The notes beneath the pieces are model-generated. The model did not search any database and was not told the origin of the DNA. It saw only the letters and a list, made by a program, of their open reading frames with translations. This document shows, piece after piece, positions 80 through 11,140 of a DNA stretch of 64,000 bases; position 1 is the stretch's first letter; the number at the start of each line of letters is the position of its first letter. The stretch covers positions 3,598 through 67,597 of the IMG/VR virus record IMGVR_UViG_3300031853_000032, one strand, 5' to 3'. Source of the stretch: a virus. Its lineage: Duplodnaviria > Caudoviricetes. Both the position numbers and the translations under genes were made by a program.

Positions 80-481
80 ATGAGCGAAAGCATACTTATC
101 TCGGTAAAGCATAAGATCGGCATATCAGACGATGATACAGGATTTGATGATCAGATTATAGACTATATTAACGCTACACTTTCTATAGTTTGGCAGCTTG
201 GCGATATAGGCAAGAAAAATTTCTGTATTACTGGGAGCGATGAGACTTGGGCAGATTATCTTGGTGATGATGAAACTAAGTTTAGTATGGTTAAGTCTTA
301 TGTGGCACTTAAGGTTAAAACAATGTTCGACCCAGGCCAAAGCAACGTACAAAGCGCTAACGAAAAAGTATTAGCTGAGTTTGAGTCAAGACTTAACTAT
401 ATGTCAGATCCGACTGTAACCGAAATCGAAGCATCTAACTATAAGCCATTGTGGGATATTGGGGAGGTAGACTATGAGTGA
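80..481 (+). CDS. putative head-tail connector (gp6-like adaptor)
   Basis: AAGGAGGT RBS favours ATG at 80 over 65; 'SILISVKHKIG..FDDQIIDYIN..L.Q.G' pattern recalled from siphovirus connector proteins; lies upstream of terL. Confidence 0.55.
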   Translation: MSESILISVKHKIGISDDDTGFDDQIIDYINATLSIVWQLGDIGKKNFCITGSDETWADYLGDDETKFSMVKSYVALKVKTMFDPGQSNVQSANEKVLAEFESRLNYMSDPTVTEIEASNYKPLWDIGEVDYE

Positions 482-2855
482 ATACCTTTTTATAAGGCGG
501 CCTCAAATTCAAAATGACGACGAATTGATGCACTTTCAGCATTTAGGGGCTAAACATGGCCAGCATAAGTTTGCTTCTTACGAGTCATCGCCGGGTGTTT
601 GGGTTTATGAATCTTCTCAGGATCACGCCCCATCGACAAGTGGTGAGCTTTCTTCTAGGAAAGCAAATGTCCCAAAAGGAAAATCTGCGTTATCGAAAAA
701 ACTTGCTGAAACTGCTAAGAAAGCTACAGGCCTTGGTACGTCTAATAGGCCATCCGAATATGTTACAAAGAGCCAAATTAAGAAAGCGATTCATGATTAC
801 AACAAAGTAAATGGAACACACTATAAGGCTAAAAATTTTAATACTATAAAGATCGGTAAGTATAAGTATGATATGAAGGGTAACAGGATCAACGAGAAAA
901 TCGGTGCTGACGTTGATCTACAAAACCTTAGTAAGAGAAATTCCAATCGTGTTAAATCTCAGACAAATGAAAAAATAAGACAGGATCTTGCGGATGCTCA
1001 GCACACAGTCAACTCACAGCGAATGAAACCGATTTCTGAGATGACGACAGAAGAGCTTAAAAGTGCTGTTAAAAGAATGGATGCTGAACAAGAATATTTA
1101 GCTAGACTTAACCTTAGAGTTGTTGATACTCCTAAAACCAAGAAAGAGCGTGTCGCTGATTTTCTTAAAGAAAACGGGGCCTTAGCGGCAAATACTTTAA
1201 CCAAAGCAGCTATTGAAGGCGCTGGTGCCGGTCTCAAGGAATATATTAAGTTTAGTACGATGAAGGCCCTTATGAATCAGAACCAGCAGAATCAGAATCA
1301 GCCGAATCAGAATCAGAATAGAAATCAGAACCAGCAAAACCAGCAGAATCGGCAGAACCAGCAGAATCGGCAGAACCAGGATCAGCAAAACCAGAACCAG
1401 AATTGGAATCAGCAAAACCAGCAGAACCAGAATAGGAACCAGAACCAGCAGAATCAGAATTGGAATCAGAACCAGCAGAACCAGCAAAATCAGCAAAATC
1501 AGAATAGGAACCAGAACCAGGATCAGAATACTTCTCAGAATATTGCACCAACTAATGGTAGACCTTTGCCGTTATCTTCCTCAAACCAGGCTAATAACAT
1601 TTCTGCTATTGGTAATTCTGTTACTAGAACTGATAACTCATCTCAGAGTAATCAGAGATCACTGTTTGGCACTACAGGACAAAACGGTGATTTTAGTAGC
1701 ATATCTAATCCTGTTTCTAGAACAAATGATACATCTCAGAGACCTTTATTTAGTACACCCGGACAAAATGGTGATTTTAGTAGCATATCCAATCCTGTAA
1801 GAAGCACAAGTTTTAGATCTATATCTCCATCAAACCAGGATAATAACATTTCTTCTATTGGTAATCCTGTAAGAAACACAAGTCTTAGATCTTTGCCGTT
1901 ATCTTCCTCAAACCAGGCTAATAACATTTCTGCTATTGCTAATCCTGTTTCTAGAACTGATAACTCATCTCAGAGTAACCTGAGACCATTGTTTAGAACA
2001 CCAGGTGCTAATGAGAAAGAAAAAGAGAGCCAGAGGATTTCACCAGTTAATAAACTTCTAAGAAAACAGCTTAACATAAAAATGTCCGAACTTGAGAGAT
2101 CTGCTTCAGAGGTCGATGCATATAATAGCGCGGCTTCAGAATCTATAAGAAGACAGCTTAACGCAAACTACTACGAATCTGTAAGAAGCTCATCAATTTT
2201 TAAATCTTTATTTGGATCTGGTTCAAACCAGGATAATAACATTTCTTCTGCTGCTAATACTGTTTCTAGAACAAATGATACATCTCAGAGATCATTATTT
2301 AGCACACCAGGACAAAATGGAAATGCTAGTAGCATATCTAATCCTGTAAGAAGCACAAGTCTTAGATCTTTGCCGTTATCTTCCTCAACCCAGTCTAATA
2401 ACATTTCTTCTATTGGTAATCTTGTAAGAAACACAAGTATTAGATCTTTGCCTTTATCTTCCTCAAACCAGGATAATAACATTTCTTCTATTGGTAATCC
2501 TGTAAGAAGCACAAGTCTTAGATCTTTGCCGTTATCTTCCTCAACCCAGTCTAATAACATTTCTTCTGTTGGTAATACTGTTTCTAGAACTGGCAATTCA
2601 TCTCAGAGACCTTTATTTAGAACTTCAGGAACAAATCCTGCCAATGCAGCCAATGCAGCATATGCCGCCGCTAAAGAAAAAGAGCGCCAGAGGATTTTAG
2701 CAGATAACGAACGTCTCAGAGAACAGCTTAATAGAAAAATGTCCGAATTTAATAGATCTGCTTCAGAGATCGATGCATATAATGAAGCCGCTTTAGCATC
2801 CATAAGAAGAAAGCTTAACACAAACTACAACGATCTTTACGGCGGAAATAGATGA
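474..2855 (+). CDS. DUF7211-like leader protein with Q/N-rich and S/N-rich repeat regions (possible virion-associated protein)
   Basis: N-terminal 'LMHFQHLGAKHGQHKF..WVY' resembles the leader of 7971..9131 (HSGKLGMKWGQHKF..WVY); long low-complexity C-terminal two-thirds. Confidence 0.6.
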   Translation: MSEYLFIRRPQIQNDDELMHFQHLGAKHGQHKFASYESSPGVWVYESSQDHAPSTSGELSSRKANVPKGKSALSKKLAETAKKATGLGTSNRPSEYVTKSQIKKAIHDYNKVNGTHYKAKNFNTIKIGKYKYDMKGNRINEKIGADVDLQNLSKRNSNRVKSQTNEKIRQDLADAQHTVNSQRMKPISEMTTEELKSAVKRMDAEQEYLARLNLRVVDTPKTKKERVADFLKENGALAANTLTKAAIEGAGAGLKEYIKFSTMKALMNQNQQNQNQPNQNQNRNQNQQNQQNRQNQQNRQNQDQQNQNQNWNQQNQQNQNRNQNQQNQNWNQNQQNQQNQQNQNRNQNQDQNTSQNIAPTNGRPLPLSSSNQANNISAIGNSVTRTDNSSQSNQRSLFGTTGQNGDFSSISNPVSRTNDTSQRPLFSTPGQNGDFSSISNPVRSTSFRSISPSNQDNNISSIGNPVRNTSLRSLPLSSSNQANNISAIANPVSRTDNSSQSNLRPLFRTPGANEKEKESQRISPVNKLLRKQLNIKMSELERSASEVDAYNSAASESIRRQLNANYYESVRSSSIFKSLFGSGSNQDNNISSAANTVSRTNDTSQRSLFSTPGQNGNASSISNPVRSTSLRSLPLSSSTQSNNISSIGNLVRNTSIRSLPLSSSNQDNNISSIGNPVRSTSLRSLPLSSSTQSNNISSVGNTVSRTGNSSQRPLFRTSGTNPANAANAAYAAAKEKERQRILADNERLREQLNRKMSEFNRSASEIDAYNEAALASIRRKLNTNYNDLYGGNR
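1272..1540 (+). repeat. low-complexity Q/N tandem repeat (CAGAAC/CAGAAT units) within CDS
   Basis: encodes NQNQQNQNQPNQNQNRNQNQQ...; almost only Q, N, R, D, W. Confidence 0.95.
1560..2625 (+). repeat. shuffled S/N-rich modular repeats within CDS
   Basis: recurring units LPLSSSNQ.NNISSIGNPVR.TS and SRT.D.SQR.LF.TPGQNG; 2340-2411 and 2496-2567 are an identical 72-bp pair. Confidence 0.9.
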
Positions 2856-2870
2856 TAGGATGGTTTATAT

Positions 2871-4616
2871 ATGTTATCAAACACAGCAGTACCGAAATAT
2901 TACGGACAGTTTAGAGACGCTGTAGTACGAGGTGAAATTCCAGTTTGCAGAGAAATAGATATGGAGATGAATCGTATCGATTCTCTTATTGCTAACCCTG
3001 GTGTATACTATGATGAGGATGCGGTGGAAGGCTGGATAAAATTTTGTGAGAAAGAGCTTACTCTTACTGATGGATCTGACCTTGATTTATTGCCGTCGTT
3101 TAAATTATGGGGCGAACAGATATTCGGTTGGTATTATATAGTTAATCGAAAAGTGTTCGTTCCTGATAAACACGGCGGCGATGGATATTTTATTAAAAAG
3201 AGAATACTTAAGCGTCTTATAAACAAACAATATCTCATTGTTGGAAGAGGTGCTGCCAAGTCGTTATATGATGAGACTCTGCAATCATATTTTCTTATAA
3301 CTGACACGACAACAACCCATCAAATAACCACAGCTCCGACAGTAAGGCAATCTGATGAGGTTTTATCACCACTCAGAACTGCAATAGCTAGAAGTAGAGG
3401 TCCTTTGTTTAAATTTATGACAGAAGGTTCCCTGCAGAATACAACCGGAAGCAAAGCCAATAGAATGAAACTTGCGCCAACAAAAGACGGCATAAAAAAT
3501 TTTATAACAGACTCTTTGCTAGAACCTAGACCGATGTCGATAGACAAATTACAAGGTCTACGATGTAAAGTGGCGACCGTAGACGAGTGGCTGTCTGGTG
3601 ACATACGAGAAGATCCTGTTGGTGCTATTGAGCAGGGTGCTTCTAAAGTTGATGATTATTTGATAATTGCTAGTTCTTCAGAAGGAACTGTAAGAAACGG
3701 TCCTGGCGATGATGTAAAGATCGAACTTCATAAAATACTTAAGGGTGAGTATATAAACCCACATGTTTCTATATTTTGGTATAAGTTAGATAACATTAAA
3801 GAAGTCGGACAACCTAAATACTGGTTAAAAGCAAACCCTAATCTTGGAAGAACCGTGTCATATGAGACCTATCAGCTTGATGTTGAGAGAGCAGAACATT
3901 CTCCAGCCGCAAGAAATGATATTTTGGCCAAAAGATTCGGATTGCCAATGGAAGGTTATACGTACTTCTTCACATTCGAGGAAACAAAACCCACAAAACG
4001 TAAACTTAATTTTCATGGATGCGCTTGTTCTATGGGTGCAGATTTGTCTCAAGGCGATGACTTCTGTTCATTTACGTTTTTATTTCCTGCCGGCAATGGT
4101 GCTTTCGGTGTAAAGACTATAAACTATATAACTGAGACAACTTATAAAGAATTGCCAGAATCAATGCGACAAAAGTATGATCAGTTTATAGCTGAAGGAA
4201 GTCTTGTAATAATGCCAGGTACTATTCTTAACATAATGGACGTGTATGATGATCTTGATGCTCGTATTGTGGCGGCTGAGTATGATGTAAGATCGTTTGG
4301 ATATGATCCATACAATGCTAGAGAATTTGTAGAAAAGTGGGCTAATGAAAACGGACCGTTTGGGATTGAGAAAGTAAGACAGGGAGCTCAAACTGAGACA
4401 GTTCCACTTGGCGAAATTAAGAAACTTACGGAACAAAAATTGCTAGAGTTCGATCAGTCTATCATGCAATTTTGTATGGGAAATGCTATAACACTCGAAG
4501 ATACAAACGGTAATAGAAAGCTTCTAAAAAGAAGGTATGAAGCTAAAATAGATGCGGTCGCTTCACTTATTGATGCTTGGGTTGCGTATAAACTAAATCT
4601 TGAGGCTTTTGAGTAG
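2871..4616 (+). CDS. terL: terminase large subunit
   Basis: Walker A-like GRGAAKS, Walker B 'VATVDEW', RuvC-like nuclease 'GADLSQGDD' and C-terminal 'KIDAVASLIDA'. Confidence 0.95.
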   Translation: MLSNTAVPKYYGQFRDAVVRGEIPVCREIDMEMNRIDSLIANPGVYYDEDAVEGWIKFCEKELTLTDGSDLDLLPSFKLWGEQIFGWYYIVNRKVFVPDKHGGDGYFIKKRILKRLINKQYLIVGRGAAKSLYDETLQSYFLITDTTTTHQITTAPTVRQSDEVLSPLRTAIARSRGPLFKFMTEGSLQNTTGSKANRMKLAPTKDGIKNFITDSLLEPRPMSIDKLQGLRCKVATVDEWLSGDIREDPVGAIEQGASKVDDYLIIASSSEGTVRNGPGDDVKIELHKILKGEYINPHVSIFWYKLDNIKEVGQPKYWLKANPNLGRTVSYETYQLDVERAEHSPAARNDILAKRFGLPMEGYTYFFTFEETKPTKRKLNFHGCACSMGADLSQGDDFCSFTFLFPAGNGAFGVKTINYITETTYKELPESMRQKYDQFIAEGSLVIMPGTILNIMDVYDDLDARIVAAEYDVRSFGYDPYNAREFVEKWANENGPFGIEKVRQGAQTETVPLGEIKKLTEQKLLEFDQSIMQFCMGNAITLEDTNGNRKLLKRRYEAKIDAVASLIDAWVAYKLNLEAFE

Positions 4617-4617
4617 A

Positions 4618-4690
4618 TCATCTTATGAATGGAGTATACTATGAGCGATTATTTAATTCATTCTGGTAAGCTTGGTATGAAATGGTATCA
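4618..4690 (+). repeat. leader repeat copy 1 (RBS plus N-terminal coding motif)
   Basis: 73 bp with 1 mismatch to 6027-6099; the core 4641-4685 is identical to 6050-6094 and 7971-8015. Confidence 0.95.
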
Positions 4691-6008
4691 TCACGATAAA
4701 GATGCCTATCAGACAAAAAGCGGCAACTGGGTTTATGGTAGAAATAAGCCTTCGGAAAATCGTGGTTTAAAAGCAGCAAAGACAGATGGTAAAACAATAA
4801 GCATAGACGGCAAAAAGGGAGCTTCAAATATTCTTGATATCCTAGATGATGCCGTAAAAGCAAATGTAGTAGGTAAGCTCGCCGATTATGACCCAAGTAG
4901 AAGTCAAAACTGTATGAGTTGCGTTATTGCCTACGATCTTAGAAGAACTGGTAATAAAGTTCAAGCAATAGAGACTGTTGAAGGTATGTCAACTTTTGTC
5001 GTTGCTGACATATACAAAAACACCAAATTTACCGATTATGTTATTAGTGCAAAAAGAGCTGGCACTAATAAGTCAATAACTGAGGGTATGACAGATTCGG
5101 AGTTTGATAGCATGGTTAACCATCTTAAGTCCAATGGCGAAAATACAAGAGGCATTGTGACAGTCGATTGGAAATCTAAAAATGGTGAAACCTATAATGG
5201 TGGTCATGCTATGAACTATGAAGTAAAAAATGGAAAGTTTTATTTGATCGACGGTCAGATTGGTAAAGTATATGACGAACAACATGCTAGAAAGCAGCTT
5301 TCTAATGCGTGTAATGTTATAACACTTAGAACTGATAACAGACAAGTAAATCTTGACTACGCTAAAAAATACTTTGTAGAACCAGAAGGCACAAAAGTAT
5401 CAAACACAGGTAAAGATGTGTACAACGCATATATCAGGCGTAAATTCGGTAGCGGTTTGCTTAAAGCAGGCTTAGTTGCAACACCAGTTTCAATTGGCTT
5501 ATCAGCTATACATCCGGCATTTTTCGCCGTTAGCATTGCTGCAGTTGCTACAAGTATTGGTGGATCTATTATTGACGATAAGTCCAAAAAGGCAGCACGA
5601 AAAATAGTTCAAAATAATAGAAACGAAACTGCTAATAAAATTATAGAAAAACTAAAAGGCGTTAAAGTAGATCCTGAACTAGTAAATTATAAGGTGGACA
5701 ATGTTATGAGAAGTCTTCCAGAGTATAACCGTGTTTATAATATGGCCGTCGGTGACAACCAGTTAGATGTTGATTTGATTCTTTCAAACCTTAAAACCAC
5801 TGATAGTAATAACGCAGTCAATAATACCCCTAACCGCAATAGAGCTCCAATACCAGTAGCATTACCGACGGGTAGAAATACAAGAGTTGGTATTACTAGT
5901 AGTCAAAAGGGTTCTATGAAGTCTCTTTATACTAAAGGCGTTCCTATAGATGAAATAGCAGAAAAACTTGGTGTATCACCTAGTACAGTATCTAAGTATG
6001 TAAAATAG
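4641..6008 (+). CDS. papain-fold toxin-like protein 1 (leader + Tox-PL1/glutamine-deamidase-like domain + hydrophobic hairpin + C-terminal HTH)
   Basis: QNCMSC..AYDLRR.G, GGHAMN and LIDGQ motifs; hydrophobic stretch AGLVATPVSIGLSAIHPAFFAVSIAAVA; tail GVPIDEIAEKLGVSPSTVSKY; GGAG RBS favours start 4641. Confidence 0.75.
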   Translation: MSDYLIHSGKLGMKWYHHDKDAYQTKSGNWVYGRNKPSENRGLKAAKTDGKTISIDGKKGASNILDILDDAVKANVVGKLADYDPSRSQNCMSCVIAYDLRRTGNKVQAIETVEGMSTFVVADIYKNTKFTDYVISAKRAGTNKSITEGMTDSEFDSMVNHLKSNGENTRGIVTVDWKSKNGETYNGGHAMNYEVKNGKFYLIDGQIGKVYDEQHARKQLSNACNVITLRTDNRQVNLDYAKKYFVEPEGTKVSNTGKDVYNAYIRRKFGSGLLKAGLVATPVSIGLSAIHPAFFAVSIAAVATSIGGSIIDDKSKKAARKIVQNNRNETANKIIEKLKGVKVDPELVNYKVDNVMRSLPEYNRVYNMAVGDNQLDVDLILSNLKTTDSNNAVNNTPNRNRAPIPVALPTGRNTRVGITSSQKGSMKSLYTKGVPIDEIAEKLGVSPSTVSKYVK

Positions 6009-6026
6009 CAAAGTATATTTGGTAAG

Positions 6027-6099
6027 TCATCTTATGAATGGAGCATACTATGAGCGATTATTTAATTCATTCTGGTAAGCTTGGTATGAAATGGTATCA
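6027..6099 (+). repeat. leader repeat copy 2
   Basis: 73 bp near-identical to 4618-4690. Confidence 0.95.
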
Positions 6100-7927
6100 G
6101 CATGATAAAAATGCTTATCAGACAGAAGCTGGTAACTGGGTTTATGGAAGAAATAAACCTTCGGAACGTGATAATGCTGTTAAACAACAAATTGCACGAA
6201 AAGTTGCAAAAGAAGTAGCACGAGCTAGAAAAACCGGTGAGTACGACATGGAATTCTTAGAAAGAAATTTAGATATAGATCCGCACACCGACAAGCAGTA
6301 TAAAGGAAAAGCGTTGGATAAAGCTTATGCTAAATATTTAACAGCTGAATATTCAAAAAGTATAAGTAACAGTGAGACAAAAAGCGGTAACTGGGTTTAT
6401 GGTGGAAATAAGCCTTCAGAAAGTTGGAACTTAACCACAGAAAAGACCGGCAGTAAAACAAAAAGTGTAAACGGCAAAGCGAGCGCTTTAGATATTCTTG
6501 ATATCGTGGATGATGCCATGAAAACAAATGTAGTAGGTAAGAATGTTGATTATAGCCCAAGCAGAAATCAAAACTGCGTGAGTTGTGCCATCGCCTATGA
6601 TCTTAGAAGAGCTGGTAATAAAGTTCAATCGATAGAGACCGCTGAAGGTATGTCGGCTTTTGTAGTCGCTGACATATACAAAAAAACTAAAACTACAGAT
6701 TATGTTATTAGCGCAAAAAGAACCGGAACTGCTAAGTCATTAACTTCTGGCATGACAGATCAAGAGTTTGATGGTATGGTTAACCATCTTAAGTCCGCTG
6801 GCGAAAACTCAAGAGGTATCATAACAGTCAATTGGAAATCTAAACATGGTGAACGCTATGTTGGTGGCCATGCTATGAACTATGAAGTAAAAAATGGAAA
6901 GTTTTATTTGATTGATAGTCAAAGCGGTGAAGTATTTGACGAACAAGGTTCTAGAAAGCAGCTTTCTTATGCGTATGATGTTATGACACTTAGAACTGAT
7001 AACCGACGTGCAAACCTTGACTACGCTAAAAGTTACTTTGTAGAACCAGAAGGTACAAAAATAACAGATGTAAGTAAAGGTTTGAAAACCGCACATACCA
7101 TTAGTAAAATTGGTACAGGTGTGCGTACAGCCGCTGCTCTTACAACATCACCTTTAATGATCGCATCGTATGTGGCTCCGCAACTTTTCCTTGCCGCATT
7201 GGGATCAGCTGGTGTATCTTACGTTTCATCAGCTGTTACAACTGCAGCTAGAACTTCAGCACTAACAACAATTCAAAAAAGTAGAAACCAATCAGCTGCT
7301 AAAATTATAGAAAGACTAACAGGCGATACAGTAGATCCAAAACAGGTATCTGCTAACGCGATTAGTACTATGAGACGTCTTCCGGAGTATAAACGTGTTT
7401 ATATGACAGACACTGATGACAAACATTTGGATGCTGCTAAAATTATGTCGGAACTTAAAACCACCGATAATAATGGTACCAATACCACTAATAATACCAC
7501 TAACCGCAATAGAGCTCCAATACCAGTAGCATTACCGACTGGAAGAAACGGTAGAAACACTAGAAACGAATCAGTCGATAAAGAACGTGGGAATGCTATT
7601 AACGAACGAGTTAGACGAGCAAGAGAAACTGGTAAGTACGACATGGAATTTCTAGAAAAAGGGTTAGATGTAAATCAGCGTACTGGTAATCTTCTTAAAG
7701 GAAAAGAGTTAGATAAAGCTTATGCTGAATATTTAAGAAGTAAAAGTAACAGTAATAATTCAAAATCCAAGTCAGCAGCATCACAGACTACTAGAAATAC
7801 AAGTATCGGTGTTACTAGTAGTCAAAAAGGTTCTATGAAGTCTCTTTATGCTAAAGGCGTCCCTATAGATGAAATTGCAGAAAAACTCGGAGTATCACCA
7901 AGTACAGTATCTAAGTATGTAAGATAG
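6050..7927 (+). CDS. papain-fold toxin-like protein 2 (paralog of 4641..6008 with two inserted YDMEFLE modules)
   Basis: QNCVSC, GGHAMN and LIDSQ motifs; same hydrophobic hairpin and HTH tail; closely similar to protein 1. Confidence 0.75.
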   Translation: MSDYLIHSGKLGMKWYQHDKNAYQTEAGNWVYGRNKPSERDNAVKQQIARKVAKEVARARKTGEYDMEFLERNLDIDPHTDKQYKGKALDKAYAKYLTAEYSKSISNSETKSGNWVYGGNKPSESWNLTTEKTGSKTKSVNGKASALDILDIVDDAMKTNVVGKNVDYSPSRNQNCVSCAIAYDLRRAGNKVQSIETAEGMSAFVVADIYKKTKTTDYVISAKRTGTAKSLTSGMTDQEFDGMVNHLKSAGENSRGIITVNWKSKHGERYVGGHAMNYEVKNGKFYLIDSQSGEVFDEQGSRKQLSYAYDVMTLRTDNRRANLDYAKSYFVEPEGTKITDVSKGLKTAHTISKIGTGVRTAAALTTSPLMIASYVAPQLFLAALGSAGVSYVSSAVTTAARTSALTTIQKSRNQSAAKIIERLTGDTVDPKQVSANAISTMRRLPEYKRVYMTDTDDKHLDAAKIMSELKTTDNNGTNTTNNTTNRNRAPIPVALPTGRNGRNTRNESVDKERGNAINERVRRARETGKYDMEFLEKGLDVNQRTGNLLKGKELDKAYAEYLRSKSNSNNSKSKSAASQTTRNTSIGVTSSQKGSMKSLYAKGVPIDEIAEKLGVSPSTVSKYVR

Positions 7928-7970
7928 CAAATGAGATTTGGTATGTTATCTTATAAAAAAGGAGTATAAC

Positions 7971-8015
7971 ATGAGCGATTATTTAATTCATTCTGGTAAG
8001 CTTGGTATGAAATGG
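7971..8015 (+). repeat. leader repeat copy 3
   Basis: 45 bp identical to 4641-4685 and 6050-6094. Confidence 0.95.
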
Positions 8016-9131
8016 GGGCAACATAAATTCGCTCTTTATATGACCCCTGGACATAACTGGGTGTATAAATCATCAATAGGTCATCTTTCAAAAGAAGCGC
8101 AGGCTCGTGCTATTAGTAAGTCCGGGTCTAAGGGAATGACATTTATAGGTGATAGGGAAACTCGCAGCATAATTCGAGATCCTTTGACCGGACAATATGA
8201 AGATACTGCAACAGCTCTTGGTAACATATTTAGCGGTAAATCTTCTAAAGAATACGAAGATGATCAATATGATGATTTTTACAAAAGAACATCTAATATG
8301 CTACTGCGCGGTATGGAAGCTGCTGGTATTACATCTGTTGGTCTAAAAGATAGATGGACCGTTACTGACGATATTATGAGGTCATGTAATCCTGGTAACA
8401 AAACAGTTCGGAGAGATGATGGTACTGTTGATACAAGTTCTTCGGAAGTAGGAACTACTAATAATTGTACAAAGTGTACTGCAGCTTTAGAGCTTGGTAT
8501 GAGAGGGTATCCCGTAAAAGCCGGTAGATGTATAGAAGGAGCTAATAGAGGTTCTTTCATGGAATGGTTTAAAGGAGCCGAAACCAAAGTAACTTCATAT
8601 GACGACGGCACCGCTGCCATTCATTCCATGCCTGACAACTCATCTGGTCAGATAGCTTTGTTTATGCAGAATGGCGGTGGTCATGCTATGCACTGGACTA
8701 AAACCAATGGCAAGTTTGAAATCCAGGATGGTCAGAGCGGTGAAAGATATTCATCAACCGACGAGTTTATCGAAAAGCATCCATGGTTTTCCAAAAACAG
8801 AGAAATGGAACTTACAAGACTCGACAACTGTGAACCCGATTGGGATAATATGAACTATAGTTCTGTAGTTGAAGTGCGAAATGACGTTGGTGAAAGAAAT
8901 GGTAGCGATTGGACTGGATATAATGTATCTGGGACACAGTATCATACTTATGATGATTATGGTCATAATAATGTCAGAGATAAATATTTCTCAGATCCGA
9001 TTATTGATGACTATGAGAGCTTTAAGAAAAATGTTCTGTCCAATAGTAAGCGTGGCAAGTCCGTTGAAGATATTCAAAAGAGATATTCCAATGTTTCTCT
9101 CGATGATCTTTGGGATATTATTAAAGGTTAA
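7971..9131 (+). CDS. papain-fold toxin-like protein 3 (same leader, divergent catalytic domain, no HTH)
   Basis: AAGGAG RBS before 7971; NNCTKC.AALE..MRG, GGHAMHW and IQDGQSG motifs. Confidence 0.72.
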   Translation: MSDYLIHSGKLGMKWGQHKFALYMTPGHNWVYKSSIGHLSKEAQARAISKSGSKGMTFIGDRETRSIIRDPLTGQYEDTATALGNIFSGKSSKEYEDDQYDDFYKRTSNMLLRGMEAAGITSVGLKDRWTVTDDIMRSCNPGNKTVRRDDGTVDTSSSEVGTTNNCTKCTAALELGMRGYPVKAGRCIEGANRGSFMEWFKGAETKVTSYDDGTAAIHSMPDNSSGQIALFMQNGGGHAMHWTKTNGKFEIQDGQSGERYSSTDEFIEKHPWFSKNREMELTRLDNCEPDWDNMNYSSVVEVRNDVGERNGSDWTGYNVSGTQYHTYDDYGHNNVRDKYFSDPIIDDYESFKKNVLSNSKRGKSVEDIQKRYSNVSLDDLWDIIKG

Positions 9132-9142
9132 GGAGATAAAAC

Positions 9143-9388
9143 ATGAGTATGAGTTTTACTGATATAGCTAAGAATATAATATCCAAAAATCCTAATTATA
9201 GAGTCATCGCGATAATAGATATCGGAAATTACATCGTGTTTAATTTGGATAAGAAAGATCATACAGGTCCAATTACCGAATCCGATCCCTTAACCTTTTC
9301 CGTAAACAAAAAGACAAAAGCTACTGAGCAATTTAACTGGGGTGTATATTCTGGGAAAACTTATAACGTGCTTTGGGAAGAAGGGTAA
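9143..9388 (+). CDS. putative immunity protein (Imm35-like), copy 1
   Basis: small gene directly after toxin 3 with AAGGAG RBS; helix, then 'IDIGNYIVF..D P..F.V.KKT'; paralogous to 9561..9797. Confidence 0.5.
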   Translation: MSMSFTDIAKNIISKNPNYRVIAIIDIGNYIVFNLDKKDHTGPITESDPLTFSVNKKTKATEQFNWGVYSGKTYNVLWEEG

Positions 9389-9393
9389 TATTT

Positions 9394-9545
9394 ATGAGCA
9401 GATGGATAATCTCCCATTCCGGTATTAAGGGTCAGAAGTGTGGTGTAAGGAGGTATGAGACTTATGCTGGTCACTTAACGCCTTTGGGGACTTTCCAGAA
9501 AAACTCGGAGTATCACCAAGTACAGTATCTAAGTATCTAAAATAA
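9394..9545 (+). pseudogene. collapsed toxin gene relic: leader fused out of frame to HTH tail
   Basis: ATG 9394 encodes MSRWIISHSGIKGQKCGVRRYETYAGHLTPLG; 9496-9536 is identical (41 bp) to 7878-7918 and reads EKLGVSPSTVSKYLK* in another frame. Confidence 0.85.
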
Positions 9546-9560
9546 TAAAGGAGATTTGGT

Positions 9561-9797
9561 ATGTCATATACGGCAAAACAGGCTGCTGATATTTTAAGAA
9601 AAGCTAAGCCTGATGTTAACATCATCAATTGTTGCGATTATGGTAAAGAGTTTCTTTTTACAGCTCCTAAAAATGGTAGCAAAAATGATATAGATCCATT
9701 TTATCTTATTGATAAGAACACTGGGGCTATCACTGGTTATACAATAGCTGAAGATCCTGATAAGTACTATTCGGCAAAGGATGTTAACTTTGACTAA
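9561..9797 (+). CDS. putative immunity protein (Imm35-like), copy 2
   Basis: AAAGGAG RBS; 'AKQAADIL..CDYGKEFLF..DPFYLIDKNTG.I' fits the recalled helix / ..F.. / P..vdk.tG pattern of Imm35. Confidence 0.55.
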   Translation: MSYTAKQAADILRKAKPDVNIINCCDYGKEFLFTAPKNGSKNDIDPFYLIDKNTGAITGYTIAEDPDKYYSAKDVNFD

Positions 9798-9808
9798 GGA
9801 GGACTAAA

Positions 9809-11140
9809 TTGGCGTTACTAGATAGACTTAAAAATTCCTGGAACGCTTTCATAGGCCGTGATCCTACATTAAACAAGCTACCTGATATATACGATCCTTA
9901 TGGTGCCTATGGAGTTCGTCCAGACAGAGTTCGGTTTACTAGAGGTAACGAACGGTCAATCGTTACTGGAATACTTAATCGAATTTCTGTTGATGCTGCA
10001 CAGATTGACTTCAAACATGTAATGCTTGATAAAGACCGACGTTTTCTTTCCGAAAAGAAATCAGGTCTAAACAATTGCCTTACTATGGAAGCTAATATCG
10101 ATCAGACTGGTAGAGCGCTTATACAAGATATTGTGATGAGTATGCTTGATGAAGGGTGCGTGGCTGTGGTCCCTACTGATACTGGATCAAATCCTTTAAA
10201 GAGCGAAAGTTATGATATTTTAACACTTAGATGCGGCAAGATCGTTGAATGGCGACCAACGCAGGTAAAAGTGCATTTGTATAACGAAAGAACCGGCAAG
10301 AAAGAGGATATTATGCTGCCAAAAAGCATGGTAGCCATAATAGAAAATCCGTTCTATGCTATACTGAATGAACCCAATGCTATATATACTAGGCTCAAAA
10401 AGAAGCTATCACTTCTTGATACGACTGATGAAGAACAGGCTTCTGGAAAACTTAACATGATTCTGCAACTCCCATACATAATAAAGACTGAAGCTAGAAG
10501 ACGACAAGCAGAACAAAGAAGAGCTGATCTCGAAGACCAACTTTCTAGTTCTAAGTACGGTATAGCTTATACAGACGGTACTGAAAAAGTAACTCAGCTT
10601 GGGCATCCTATAGACAATACACTTCTGGAGCAGGTTAAAATGTTTCAGGAGCAGCTTTATTCTGTTATGGGTATAACTCAGTCTATTCTCGATTCTACAG
10701 CTGATGAAAAGACTATGCAGAATTATTACTCAAGGACTATCGAGCCAATCCTCAATGCTATTTGTGACGAGATGAACCGAAAGTTCTTGACAAGTACAGC
10801 TCGAACTCAGGGACAAGCTGTTAGATATTTTAGAGATCCATTTAAGCTTGTGCCGATAACAGAGCTTCCAGACCTTGCTGATAAGATGACAAGGAACGAG
10901 ATCATGACATCTAATGAGTGGCGTCAGATTATTGGTCTCAAACCTGCAGATGATCCTTCGGCTAACGAACTTAGAAATAAGAACATCTCGCAGTCTTCTG
11001 AAGAAATAGCGGCAAAGAACGGTGATAGCCTTTTAGGTGAAGAAACGACAGAACAAGGATCGGAAGGAACCGATGAAATACGACTGGAAAGAAGGTTTGA
11101 CAATCCAGAAGTAGAAAAGTTTATTAATGGATTGGGATGA
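9809..11140 (+). CDS. portal protein (HK97-like)
   Basis: TTG start with AAGGAGG RBS; size, position and motifs (LT.EANIDQTG, LADK.TRNEIMTSNE.RQIIG.KP). Confidence 0.9.
   Translation: MALLDRLKNSWNAFIGRDPTLNKLPDIYDPYGAYGVRPDRVRFTRGNERSIVTGILNRISVDAAQIDFKHVMLDKDRRFLSEKKSGLNNCLTMEANIDQTGRALIQDIVMSMLDEGCVAVVPTDTGSNPLKSESYDILTLRCGKIVEWRPTQVKVHLYNERTGKKEDIMLPKSMVAIIENPFYAILNEPNAIYTRLKKKLSLLDTTDEEQASGKLNMILQLPYIIKTEARRRQAEQRRADLEDQLSSSKYGIAYTDGTEKVTQLGHPIDNTLLEQVKMFQEQLYSVMGITQSILDSTADEKTMQNYYSRTIEPILNAICDEMNRKFLTSTARTQGQAVRYFRDPFKLVPITELPDLADKMTRNEIMTSNEWRQIIGLKPADDPSANELRNKNISQSSEEIAAKNGDSLLGEETTEQGSEGTDEIRLERRFDNPEVEKFINGLG

What the first reader, a model, noticed from the sequence alone, without database searches (positions are those of the whole stretch)
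9394..9545. Fossil of a deleted toxin: leader joined out of frame to the HTH tail
Seen: an ORF not in the track encodes MSRWIISHSGIKGQKCGVRRYETYAGHLTPLG, close to the canonical HxGIKGQKWGVRR leader with W changed to C. It runs into 41 bp (9496-9536) identical to the HTH-coding end of toxin 2 (7878-7918), but in another frame. The GAGATTTGGTATG downstream of it also follows toxin 2. Inference: a fourth effector lost its whole catalytic core and left its immunity gene orphaned. This is direct evidence that the array turns over through its conserved ends.
Basis: seen in the sequence. Interest (0 to 1): 0.7.

Follow-up and report, generated by a model that had tools for sequence, protein, structure and literature searches.

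The report
Dead junction scar in phage toxin array
A 150-base leftover in a phage genome joins the start of one toxin-type gene, out of frame, to the last 16 codons of another; it is a real but ordinary recombination scar, and the small protective gene after it probably still serves two intact toxin genes upstream.

Summary
A 48-codon ORF (9394-9540) opens with a decayed N-terminal leader of the Pfam DUF7211 type, in which the otherwise invariant Trp is Cys. From 9493 it runs into a copy of the 3' end of toxins 1 and 2. That copy is 41/41 nt identical to 7878-7918 and is read in another frame, which ends at 9545.

The window is a 67.6-kb IMG/VR phage record. The segment lies in its head module: TerL, three Gln_amidase/Tox-PL1 toxins, an 81-aa ORF, the remnant, a 78-aa ORF, then portal.

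Relatives hold intact genes in front of homologues of the 78-aa ORF. One (L071) has the full leader, Gln_amidase core and HTH tail. About 1 kb is therefore missing here.

Two inferences need correcting:
- **The 78-aa gene is not orphaned.** Its homologues pair only with toxins of the toxin 1/2 clade, and toxins 1 and 2 have no partner gene of their own.
- **The shared GAGATTTGGTATG is that gene's own ribosome-binding site and start codon.** It was copied along when the toxin unit duplicated in tandem.

The leader is of a different subtype from the array's own leaders. The scar is therefore probably a chimera of two genes rather than one gutted gene.

This is ordinary gene decay in an interesting array, so interest is low to moderate. 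The scan holds notes only from this same window, none from other DNA.

The parts
9394..9492 (+). Decayed DUF7211-type N-terminal leader, codons 1-33 of the remnant ORF; Cys replaces the invariant Trp
   Evidence: translation; 33.8 bits, E 7e-11 against a profile of 52 leaders that score 43.7-73.7; 0-1 of 52 leaders share its residue at nine of the 30 leader columns, five of them well conserved: W to C, Q to E, N to T, D to A, S to H; up to 63% identity to leaders of related phages, and the homology ends at residue 32; no Pfam hit at E<=10.
9490..9495 (+). Junction between leader-derived and tail-derived DNA; the frames differ by one base
   Evidence: Similarity to the toxin 1/2 tails begins at 9493-9496. 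Upstream of that nothing is alignable beyond chance.
9493..9545 (+). Copy of the last 16 codons plus stop of a toxin 1/2-type HTH tail (PEKLGVSPSTVSKYLK*), not in the leader's frame
   Evidence: (D5); 41/41 identical to 7878-7918, none expected by chance.
9394..9540 (+). The 48-codon ORF as it stands (leader, then 16 out-of-frame codons, then TAA)
   Evidence: Not present as a called protein in the 15-billion-protein collection. No relatives found by word search (weak evidence).
9547..9563 (+). RBS AAAGGAG, 7-nt spacer and ATG of the 78-aa gene; degenerate copies of this follow toxins 1 and 2
9561..9797 (+). 78-aa PepSY-like small protein, the likely inhibitor (immunity) partner of the toxin 1/2 clade
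   Evidence: Homologues lie directly after toxin 1/2-clade toxins in L068, L070 and L071-L073. Co-variation. Family of 457 representative clusters. 11 of 80 members hit Pfam PepSY. Model pLDDT 89. Best fold matches are PepSY-domain proteins, with weak E-values.
9143..9388 (+). 81-aa diverged member of the same small-protein family, the likely partner of toxin 3
   Evidence: its cluster representative P0009 is the top hit, but this protein is itself one of the nine sequences the profile was built from. No BLASTP similarity to the 78-aa protein.
7875..7949 (+). Toxin 2 tail plus degenerate RBS/start of the 78-aa gene (repeat copy)
   Evidence: (D5).
5956..6030 (+). Toxin 1 tail plus degenerate RBS/start of the 78-aa gene (repeat copy)
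   Evidence: (D5). In strain contig L069 this flank keeps 14 of the first 18 nt of the 78-aa gene (MSYTVK against MSYTAK), fused in frame to toxin 2.
4629..9131 (+). Three tandem Gln_amidase (Tox-PL1) toxin genes: 4629-6008, 6038-7927, 7971-9131. From the ATG of MSDY (4641, 6050, 7971) their first 45 nt are identical.
   Evidence: (PF15644 E 1e-10, 1.6e-10, 8e-5; HTH families at the ends of toxins 1 and 2).

Best explanation
The segment is a dead recombination scar in a phage head-module array of capsid-associated toxins. Shown: it consists of the complete but decayed DUF7211-type leader of one gene. This is joined one base out of frame to the last 16 codons of a toxin 1/2-type HTH tail. The intact RBS and coding sequence of the 78-aa PepSY-like gene follow. 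It has no catalytic domain and only half of an HTH motif, so it can make neither a toxin nor a DNA-binding tail. Inferred history: an ancestral unit of toxin + 78-aa gene sat between terminase and portal, as in relatives. The toxin was amplified in tandem, and each copy took the RBS and start of the 78-aa gene with it. That is why the tail plus GAGATTTGGTATG recurs after toxins 1 and 2. The last copy, the one still attached to the whole 78-aa gene, was then overwritten. The incoming block carried the toxin 3 body, its 81-aa partner and the 5' end of the next, canonical-leader gene. The left crossover lay in the 45 nt identical leader and the right one was illegitimate. Only the last ~50 nt of that toxin copy survive. 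The 78-aa gene is kept because toxins 1 and 2 still need it. I hold the general claim (a non-functional leader-plus-tail remnant) at about 0.9. The confidence given below is for the chimeric, block-replacement history.
For: Anatomy. Leader subtype: the remnant scores 33.8 bits and the array's own leaders 11.9-18.5 on a profile of 52 canonical leaders, with no nucleotide similarity to them; the tail is 41/41 identical to toxin 2. Tandem-duplication footprints: the RBS and start of the 78-aa gene follow toxin 1 and toxin 2. In the 99% identical contig L069 the flank keeps 14 of the first 18 nt of that gene. The left edge of the proposed block is visible: toxin 3 is identical to toxins 1 and 2 for 45 nt up to the Trp codon, then drops sharply. 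In relatives a partner gene is followed by a canonical-leader gene (L068, L070, L071), so 'toxin body - partner - next leader' is a natural contiguous block. Leader GC3 is 16/33, in the top 1.4% of 33-codon windows of the module (weak). The partner is needed by toxins 1 and 2: co-variation, and there is no other ORF between those genes.
Against: No donor carrying toxin 3 + the 81-aa gene + this leader was found. L071 shows that a single gene can carry both a canonical leader and an HTH tail. Gene conversion among tails is active, so the 41/41 identity does not prove that the tail belonged to an array-type copy. The order of events is therefore inference from one genome.
Confidence: 0.5

Rival explanations
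1. Simple internal deletion. A single fourth toxin, with canonical leader + Gln_amidase core + transmembrane region + HTH tail and followed by the 78-aa gene, lost about 1.0-1.2 kb between codon 33 and the 16th codon from its end.
For: L071/L072/L073 carry this architecture in one 400-aa gene, directly followed by a 75-aa homologue of the 78-aa ORF. L068 and L070 have canonical-leader toxins of the toxin 1/2 clade before such a homologue. Tail homogenisation by gene conversion could explain the 41/41 identity to toxin 2.
Against: Toxins 1 and 2 carry footprints of the start of the 78-aa gene, so they derive from the gene that sat next to it, yet they have a different leader subtype. More events are needed than for block replacement. 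The abrupt 45-nt identity edge in toxin 3 is left unexplained.
Confidence: 0.3
2. Assembly artefact. The metagenome assembler joined two places through the 41-bp exact repeat, and the out-of-frame junction does not exist in any real genome.
For: The record is a metagenome-assembled contig. The array holds 41-45 bp exact repeats. In another metagenome the same phage assembled only up to toxin 2 (L069) and again from the portal (L004), so this region breaks assemblies.
Against: A repeat can mis-pair its exits, but the entry from unique leader DNA into the repeat (9485-9500) must exist in reads. Swapping the two exits would give a closed loop, not a genome. The 81-aa and 78-aa proteins and toxin 3 recur in several independent assemblies, with longest contigs of 23-98 kb.
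Confidence: 0.03
3. The short ORF is functional as it stands. It could act as a leader-only peptide competing for the capsid-loading site. Alternatively a -1 slip on G-AAA-AAC (9498-9504) could fuse the leader to the tail.
For: It has an ATG and a weak RBS-like GAAGGG upstream. A -1 shift at the A-run would enter the tail frame.
Against: The invariant Trp is lost and four other conserved leader positions are changed. The tail keeps only turn + recognition helix of the HTH. The A-run is inherited from the normal AEKL codons of toxins 1 and 2. There is no stimulatory RNA structure (z = 0.23). The ORF was not called as a protein anywhere and no relatives were found.
Confidence: 0.05

Closest known systems
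Orphan toxin/immunity modules and rearranged fragments of CDI (cdiA-CT/cdiI) and Rhs loci (Poole et al. 2011, PMC3150448)
   Same: Both are tandem arrays of polymorphic toxin cassettes with small downstream protective genes. Fragments are left behind by cassette exchange. Homology is confined to short conserved sequences at cassette borders, such as the VENN-coding region.
   Different: CDI orphans keep the toxin domain and lack initiation signals. This remnant keeps the initiation region and N-terminal leader and has no toxin domain. The conserved borders are an N-terminal DUF7211 leader and a C-terminal HTH tail, and the array sits in a phage head module.
MuF polymorphic toxins of temperate phages, and Tox-PL1 fused to MuF next to terminase/portal genes (Jamet et al. 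2017, PMC5576092; Zhang et al. 2012, PMC3482391)
   Same: Both are phage-encoded toxins in the packaging/head module, followed by small ORFs taken as immunity genes. A Tox-PL1 (Gln_amidase) domain occurs in that setting. Distant Tox-PL1 matches occur in head-module genes of actinophages.
   Different: No MuF domain was found in any of the eight proteins encoded in 474-11140 (ORFs after the portal were not scanned). The constant part is a ~30-residue leader (DUF7211) at the N-terminus. There are several tandem toxins instead of one. Zhang et al. link Tox-PL1 to Imm35, but here the partner is PepSY-like.
Ordinary deletion or recombination pseudogenes
   Same: It is an out-of-frame junction of gene ends, with loss of conserved residues and no detectable relatives of the product.
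   Different: Nothing essential differs. Its only special value is as a marker of how this array was built.

Membership tests
Pfam DUF7211 (PF23847) N-terminal leader | Match to the family profile; motif H-x-G-[IV]-x-G-[MQ]-[KR]-W-G-[VI]-R-R, then Y/F-Q-N-x-D-G-S/T-L/Y-T-x-x-G | tested here: inconclusive
   No Pfam hit for the 48-aa ORF at E<=10. A relative's leader passes the cut-off (L025, 29.5 against 27 bits) and toxin leaders in L068, L070 and L071 score 21-25 bits. On my own profile of 52 leaders the remnant scores 33.8 bits (E 7e-11), below all 52. It is a homologue by descent, degenerate in sequence, with Trp replaced by Cys.
Gln_amidase / Tox-PL1 (PF15644) toxin | Papain-fold core with the NC...H...D-x-Q signature | tested here: not met
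   The remnant has no such sequence in any frame. Toxins 1-3 and the relatives' intact genes meet it.
C-terminal HTH tail (HTH_23/HTH_7/HTH_3-like) | A complete helix-turn-helix of about 25-45 residues in the gene's frame | tested here: not met
   Only 16 residues (turn + recognition helix) remain, and in another frame. Toxins 1 and 2 and L071 match HTH families over 22-37 residues.
CDI/Rhs-type orphan toxin-immunity module | A retained toxin domain with its cognate immunity gene, lacking its own initiation signals, with border homology to the main gene | tested here: not met
   The toxin domain is absent and an initiation codon is present. Only the downstream small gene is intact.
PepSY (PF03413) for the 78-aa ORF | Profile match and a helix + four-strand sheet fold | tested here: inconclusive
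   The 78-aa ORF itself gives E 0.082 and L068's homologue E 0.008, both below the cut-off. 11 of 80 family members match at E<=0.01, best 1.3e-5. The model has H-E-E-E-E-H with pLDDT 89. The best fold matches are the PepSY-domain proteins FoxB (TM 0.58-0.60) and YpeB, but the Foldseek E-values are >=0.07.
Imm35 (the Tox-PL1-associated immunity family of Zhang et al. 2012) | Match to the Pfam Imm35 profile | tested here: not met
   No Imm35 hit for either small ORF at E<=10, nor for any of 80 family members at E<=0.01.

The most novel reading that the evidence does not exclude
The scar would be the footprint of a cassette-exchange system in a so far undescribed class of phage capsid-cargo toxins (DUF7211 leader in place of MuF). 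In this reading the nucleotide-identical 45-nt leader and 41-nt HTH tail act as recombination arms, like the VENN region of CDI. Strains of one phage would then differ in toxin number and type, while a shared PepSY-like inhibitor gene is kept at the end of the array.
Probability: 0.3. Interest if true: 0.55.

Novelty: new member of a known kind. Interest (0 to 1): 0.3.

Why it matters
By itself the remnant is ordinary gene decay. Its use is as a marker. Together with the copies of the 78-aa gene's start that trail toxins 1 and 2, it shows that this phage toxin array grew by tandem duplication of a toxin-plus-partner unit and was then partly overwritten. It also suggests that one small inhibitor gene may serve two toxin paralogues. 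That corrects the annotation: a needed partner, not an orphan. It also gives a concrete, testable picture of how toxin repertoires change in phage head modules. The leader (DUF7211) has no published function: a full-text search for the name found no paper.

Tried and rejected
(1) Close strains covering the slot could not be obtained.
- Scans of viral, metagenome and genome collections with the 78-aa protein, its alignment or a DNA pattern gave only the 51% relative L068.
- The 99-100% identical contigs L069 and L004 stop in toxin 2 and restart in the portal.

(2) The remnant ORF is not a called protein, and word searches found nothing, near or longer. This is weak evidence, because canonical leaders that should share words were not returned either.

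(3) No donor for toxin 3 was found in viral contigs. No prophage copy of the toxin 1/2 clade was found in 185,579 species genomes. No close cultured phage was found.

(4) A programmed -1 frameshift was rejected. The heptamer is imperfect and inherited from normal codons, and there is no structure.

(5) There is no promoter or terminator inside the remnant that could explain its retention. Promoter-like sites are fewer than in shuffles.

(6) The 'Imm35-like' label for the small ORFs was rejected on Pfam evidence; PepSY-like fits better.

(7) Homology of the remnant to the toxin 2 tail upstream of 9493 amounts to 10/18 matches, which is not distinguishable from chance.

(8) 'Relatives' cannot be drawn for a virus record.

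Full report
**Setting.** The window is part of a 67.6-kb IMG/VR virus record. The finding lies in the head module:
- a repeat-rich 793-aa protein (474-2855);
- the large terminase (2871-4616);
- three tandem genes that match Pfam Gln_amidase/Tox-PL1: 4629-6008, 6038-7927 and 7971-9131;
- an 81-aa ORF (9143-9388);
- the segment in question (9394-9545);
- a 78-aa ORF (9561-9797);
- the portal (9809-11140).

Toxins 1 and 2 end in a helix-turn-helix tail.

**Observation.** It holds.
- The frame from the ATG at 9394 gives the reported peptide and runs on to a TAA at 9538-9540, 48 codons in all.
- The frame one base earlier reads FPEKLGVSPSTVSKYLK and stops at 9543-9545. This is the end of the toxin 1/2 tail.
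- The 41-mer at 9496-9536 is identical to 7878-7918 and has 3 mismatches to 5959-5999, with none expected by chance.
- The repeat family extends over 75 nt in three copies (D5).

**The leader.** Sixty-four related phage loci were fetched through the portal. They encode many proteins that begin with H-x-G-[IV]-x-G-[MQ]-[KR]-W-G-V-R-R-[YF]-Q-N-x-D-G-S-L-T-x-x-G.
- Pfam calls this DUF7211. One relative passes the cut-off and the toxin leaders of L068, L070 and L071 score just below it.
- On a profile of 52 distinct leaders the remnant scores 33.8 bits (E 7e-11). That is lower than every member (43.7-73.7) but far above the leaders of toxins 1-3 (11.9-18.5).
- It has Cys where every leader found with a pattern that also allowed H or C has Trp. 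It also departs at four more well-conserved positions.
- Similarity to other leaders ends at residue 32, which is the end of the conserved domain.

The remnant therefore keeps a whole but decayed canonical leader. This subtype differs from the one used by the array. The array's own subtype resembles the N-terminus of the 474-2855 protein.

**Intact counterparts.** A metagenome contig (L068) has a 338-aa gene with a canonical leader and a Gln_amidase core. It is 34% identical to toxin 1 (E 3e-39) and only weakly similar to toxin 3. A 76-aa protein 51% identical to the 78-aa ORF follows it directly.

Viral contigs L070 and L071-L073 show the same pairing. In L071 the 400-aa gene has DUF7211, Gln_amidase and a C-terminal HTH. 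A 75-aa partner, another leader gene and the portal follow it. Compared with these genes the remnant lacks roughly 1.0-1.2 kb.

**The small ORFs.** Nine small proteins that follow such toxins align into one family.
- A profile of the nine finds 457 representative clusters, mostly proteins of 75-90 aa.
- Eleven of 80 members match Pfam PepSY and none matches Imm35.
- The model (pLDDT 89) has a helix, four strands and a final helix.
- Its best fold matches are PepSY-domain proteins, with weak scores.

PepSY domains are known as peptidase-inhibiting propeptide modules (Pfam description). An inhibitor role toward a papain-fold toxin is therefore plausible, but it is inference.

**Not an orphan.** In all-against-all comparisons the toxins of L068, L070 and L071 cluster with toxins 1 and 2 (117-246 bits). 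Their partners cluster with the 78-aa protein (57-78 bits). Toxin 3 and the 81-aa protein are remote from all of them.

Toxins 1 and 2 are separated from the next gene by only 29 and 43 nt and have no partner ORF. The 78-aa gene is therefore the only partner of the right type for two intact toxins.

**What the repeated end is.** The sequence after the toxin 1 and toxin 2 stops aligns with the RBS (AAAGGAG), spacer and ATG-TCA-T of the 78-aa gene. The RBS or the ATG is degenerate there.

In L069, a contig 99.2% identical to the window over 6.16 kb, the flank of toxin 1 keeps an intact RBS. It also keeps 14 of the first 18 nt of the 78-aa gene (MSYTVK against MSYTAK), fused in frame to the leader of toxin 2.

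These are junctions of tandem duplication of a unit made of the toxin plus the first bases of its partner gene. The tail at 9493-9560 is then simply the end of the last unit, still attached to the complete partner gene.

**Turnover at the ends.**
- Between the window and L069, 20 of 49 differences fall in 6014-6062 and 7 more in 5903-5972, that is, in the toxin 1 tail and the spacer.
- Between toxins 1 and 2 the first 20 codons are 98% identical with 0 of 19 synonymous changes, against about 80% identity in the core.
- All three toxins share 45 identical nt up to the Trp codon.

**History.** The most economical account is as follows. The last tandem copy was overwritten, from the Trp codon of its leader to 50 nt before its stop. 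The incoming block carried the toxin 3 body, the 81-aa gene and the first 33 codons of the next, canonical-leader gene. In L068, L070 and L071 a partner gene is indeed followed by such a gene.

This account explains three things:
- the abrupt identity edge in toxin 3;
- the foreign leader subtype;
- the pristine tail.

The atypical GC3 of the leader (16/33, top 1.4% of windows) fits weakly. The alternative is one mosaic gene with an internal deletion. It remains possible because L071 combines a canonical leader with an HTH tail, and because tails are subject to conversion.

No donor and no close strain covering the slot could be obtained, so the order of events is inferred.

**Rejected readings.**
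- Assembly artefact is unlikely. The entry from unique DNA into the repeat must exist in reads, and swapping the repeat exits gives a loop.
- A functional micro-ORF or a -1 frameshift product is unlikely. The Trp is lost, half the HTH is missing, there is no RNA structure and no relatives were found.
- No promoter or terminator signal explains retention.

**Known systems.**
- The closest analogues are orphan and rearranged cassettes of CDI/Rhs loci (PMC3150448).
- Also close are the phage MuF polymorphic toxins and the Tox-PL1-MuF fusions next to terminase and portal genes (PMC5576092, PMC3482391).
- The remnant is not an orphan module in the CDI sense, because it has no toxin domain.
- A full-text search for DUF7211 found no paper, and leader-motif strings matched only an unrelated plant-coilin paper.

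**Verdict.** This is a real, non-functional scar and a new example of a known kind of event. It is useful mainly for reconstructing how the array was built. Interest is 0.3.

Noticed in passing
window 6173-6427 and 7556-7804 (toxin 2 residues 46-130 and 507-589): Compared with toxin 1, toxin 2 has two insertions of about 85 and 83 residues. They are copies of each other (6220-6341 against 7615-7736, 79% nt) and share a K-x-G-x-YDMEFLE...KGK-x-LDKAYA-x-YL motif. This is a duplicated inserted module of unknown role.
   Followed up: partly
L069:7396-7533 (IMGVR_UViG_3300032038_003442): In a 99% identical strain, toxin 2 starts from the RBS and the first codons (MSYT) of the 78-aa gene, fused in frame to the leader. 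The contig ends exactly where the toxin 2-specific insertion begins. A second contig from the same metagenome (L004) resumes inside the portal, so the array broke that assembly.
   Followed up: partly
window 474-2855: This 793-aa protein has a very diverged leader-like N-terminus (HLGAKHGQHKFASY...GVWVY, similar to toxin 3 after its Trp). It also has a long Q/N-rich run and many repeats of an S-S-S-N-Q-x-N-N-I-S-S-x-G-N-x-V unit. It has no Pfam match.
   Followed up: no
related loci L005-L075: Related phages carry up to four DUF7211-led genes around terminase and portal, with bodies of 105-556 aa, most without any Pfam domain. The family looks like a general N-terminal address tag for head-module accessory proteins. 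Its function is not described in the searched literature.
   Followed up: partly
proteins P0036, P0083, P0117, P0126, P0128, P0151: Some members of the PepSY-like small-protein family are the N-terminal 75 residues of proteins of 268-556 aa. These may be fusions with the downstream leader gene, or read-through gene calls.
   Followed up: no
window 9503-9521 and 7885-7903: The repeated tail contains a 6-bp inverted repeat followed, on the minus strand, by a T-run (terminator-like by the simple scan). It is probably incidental to the HTH coding sequence.
   Followed up: no
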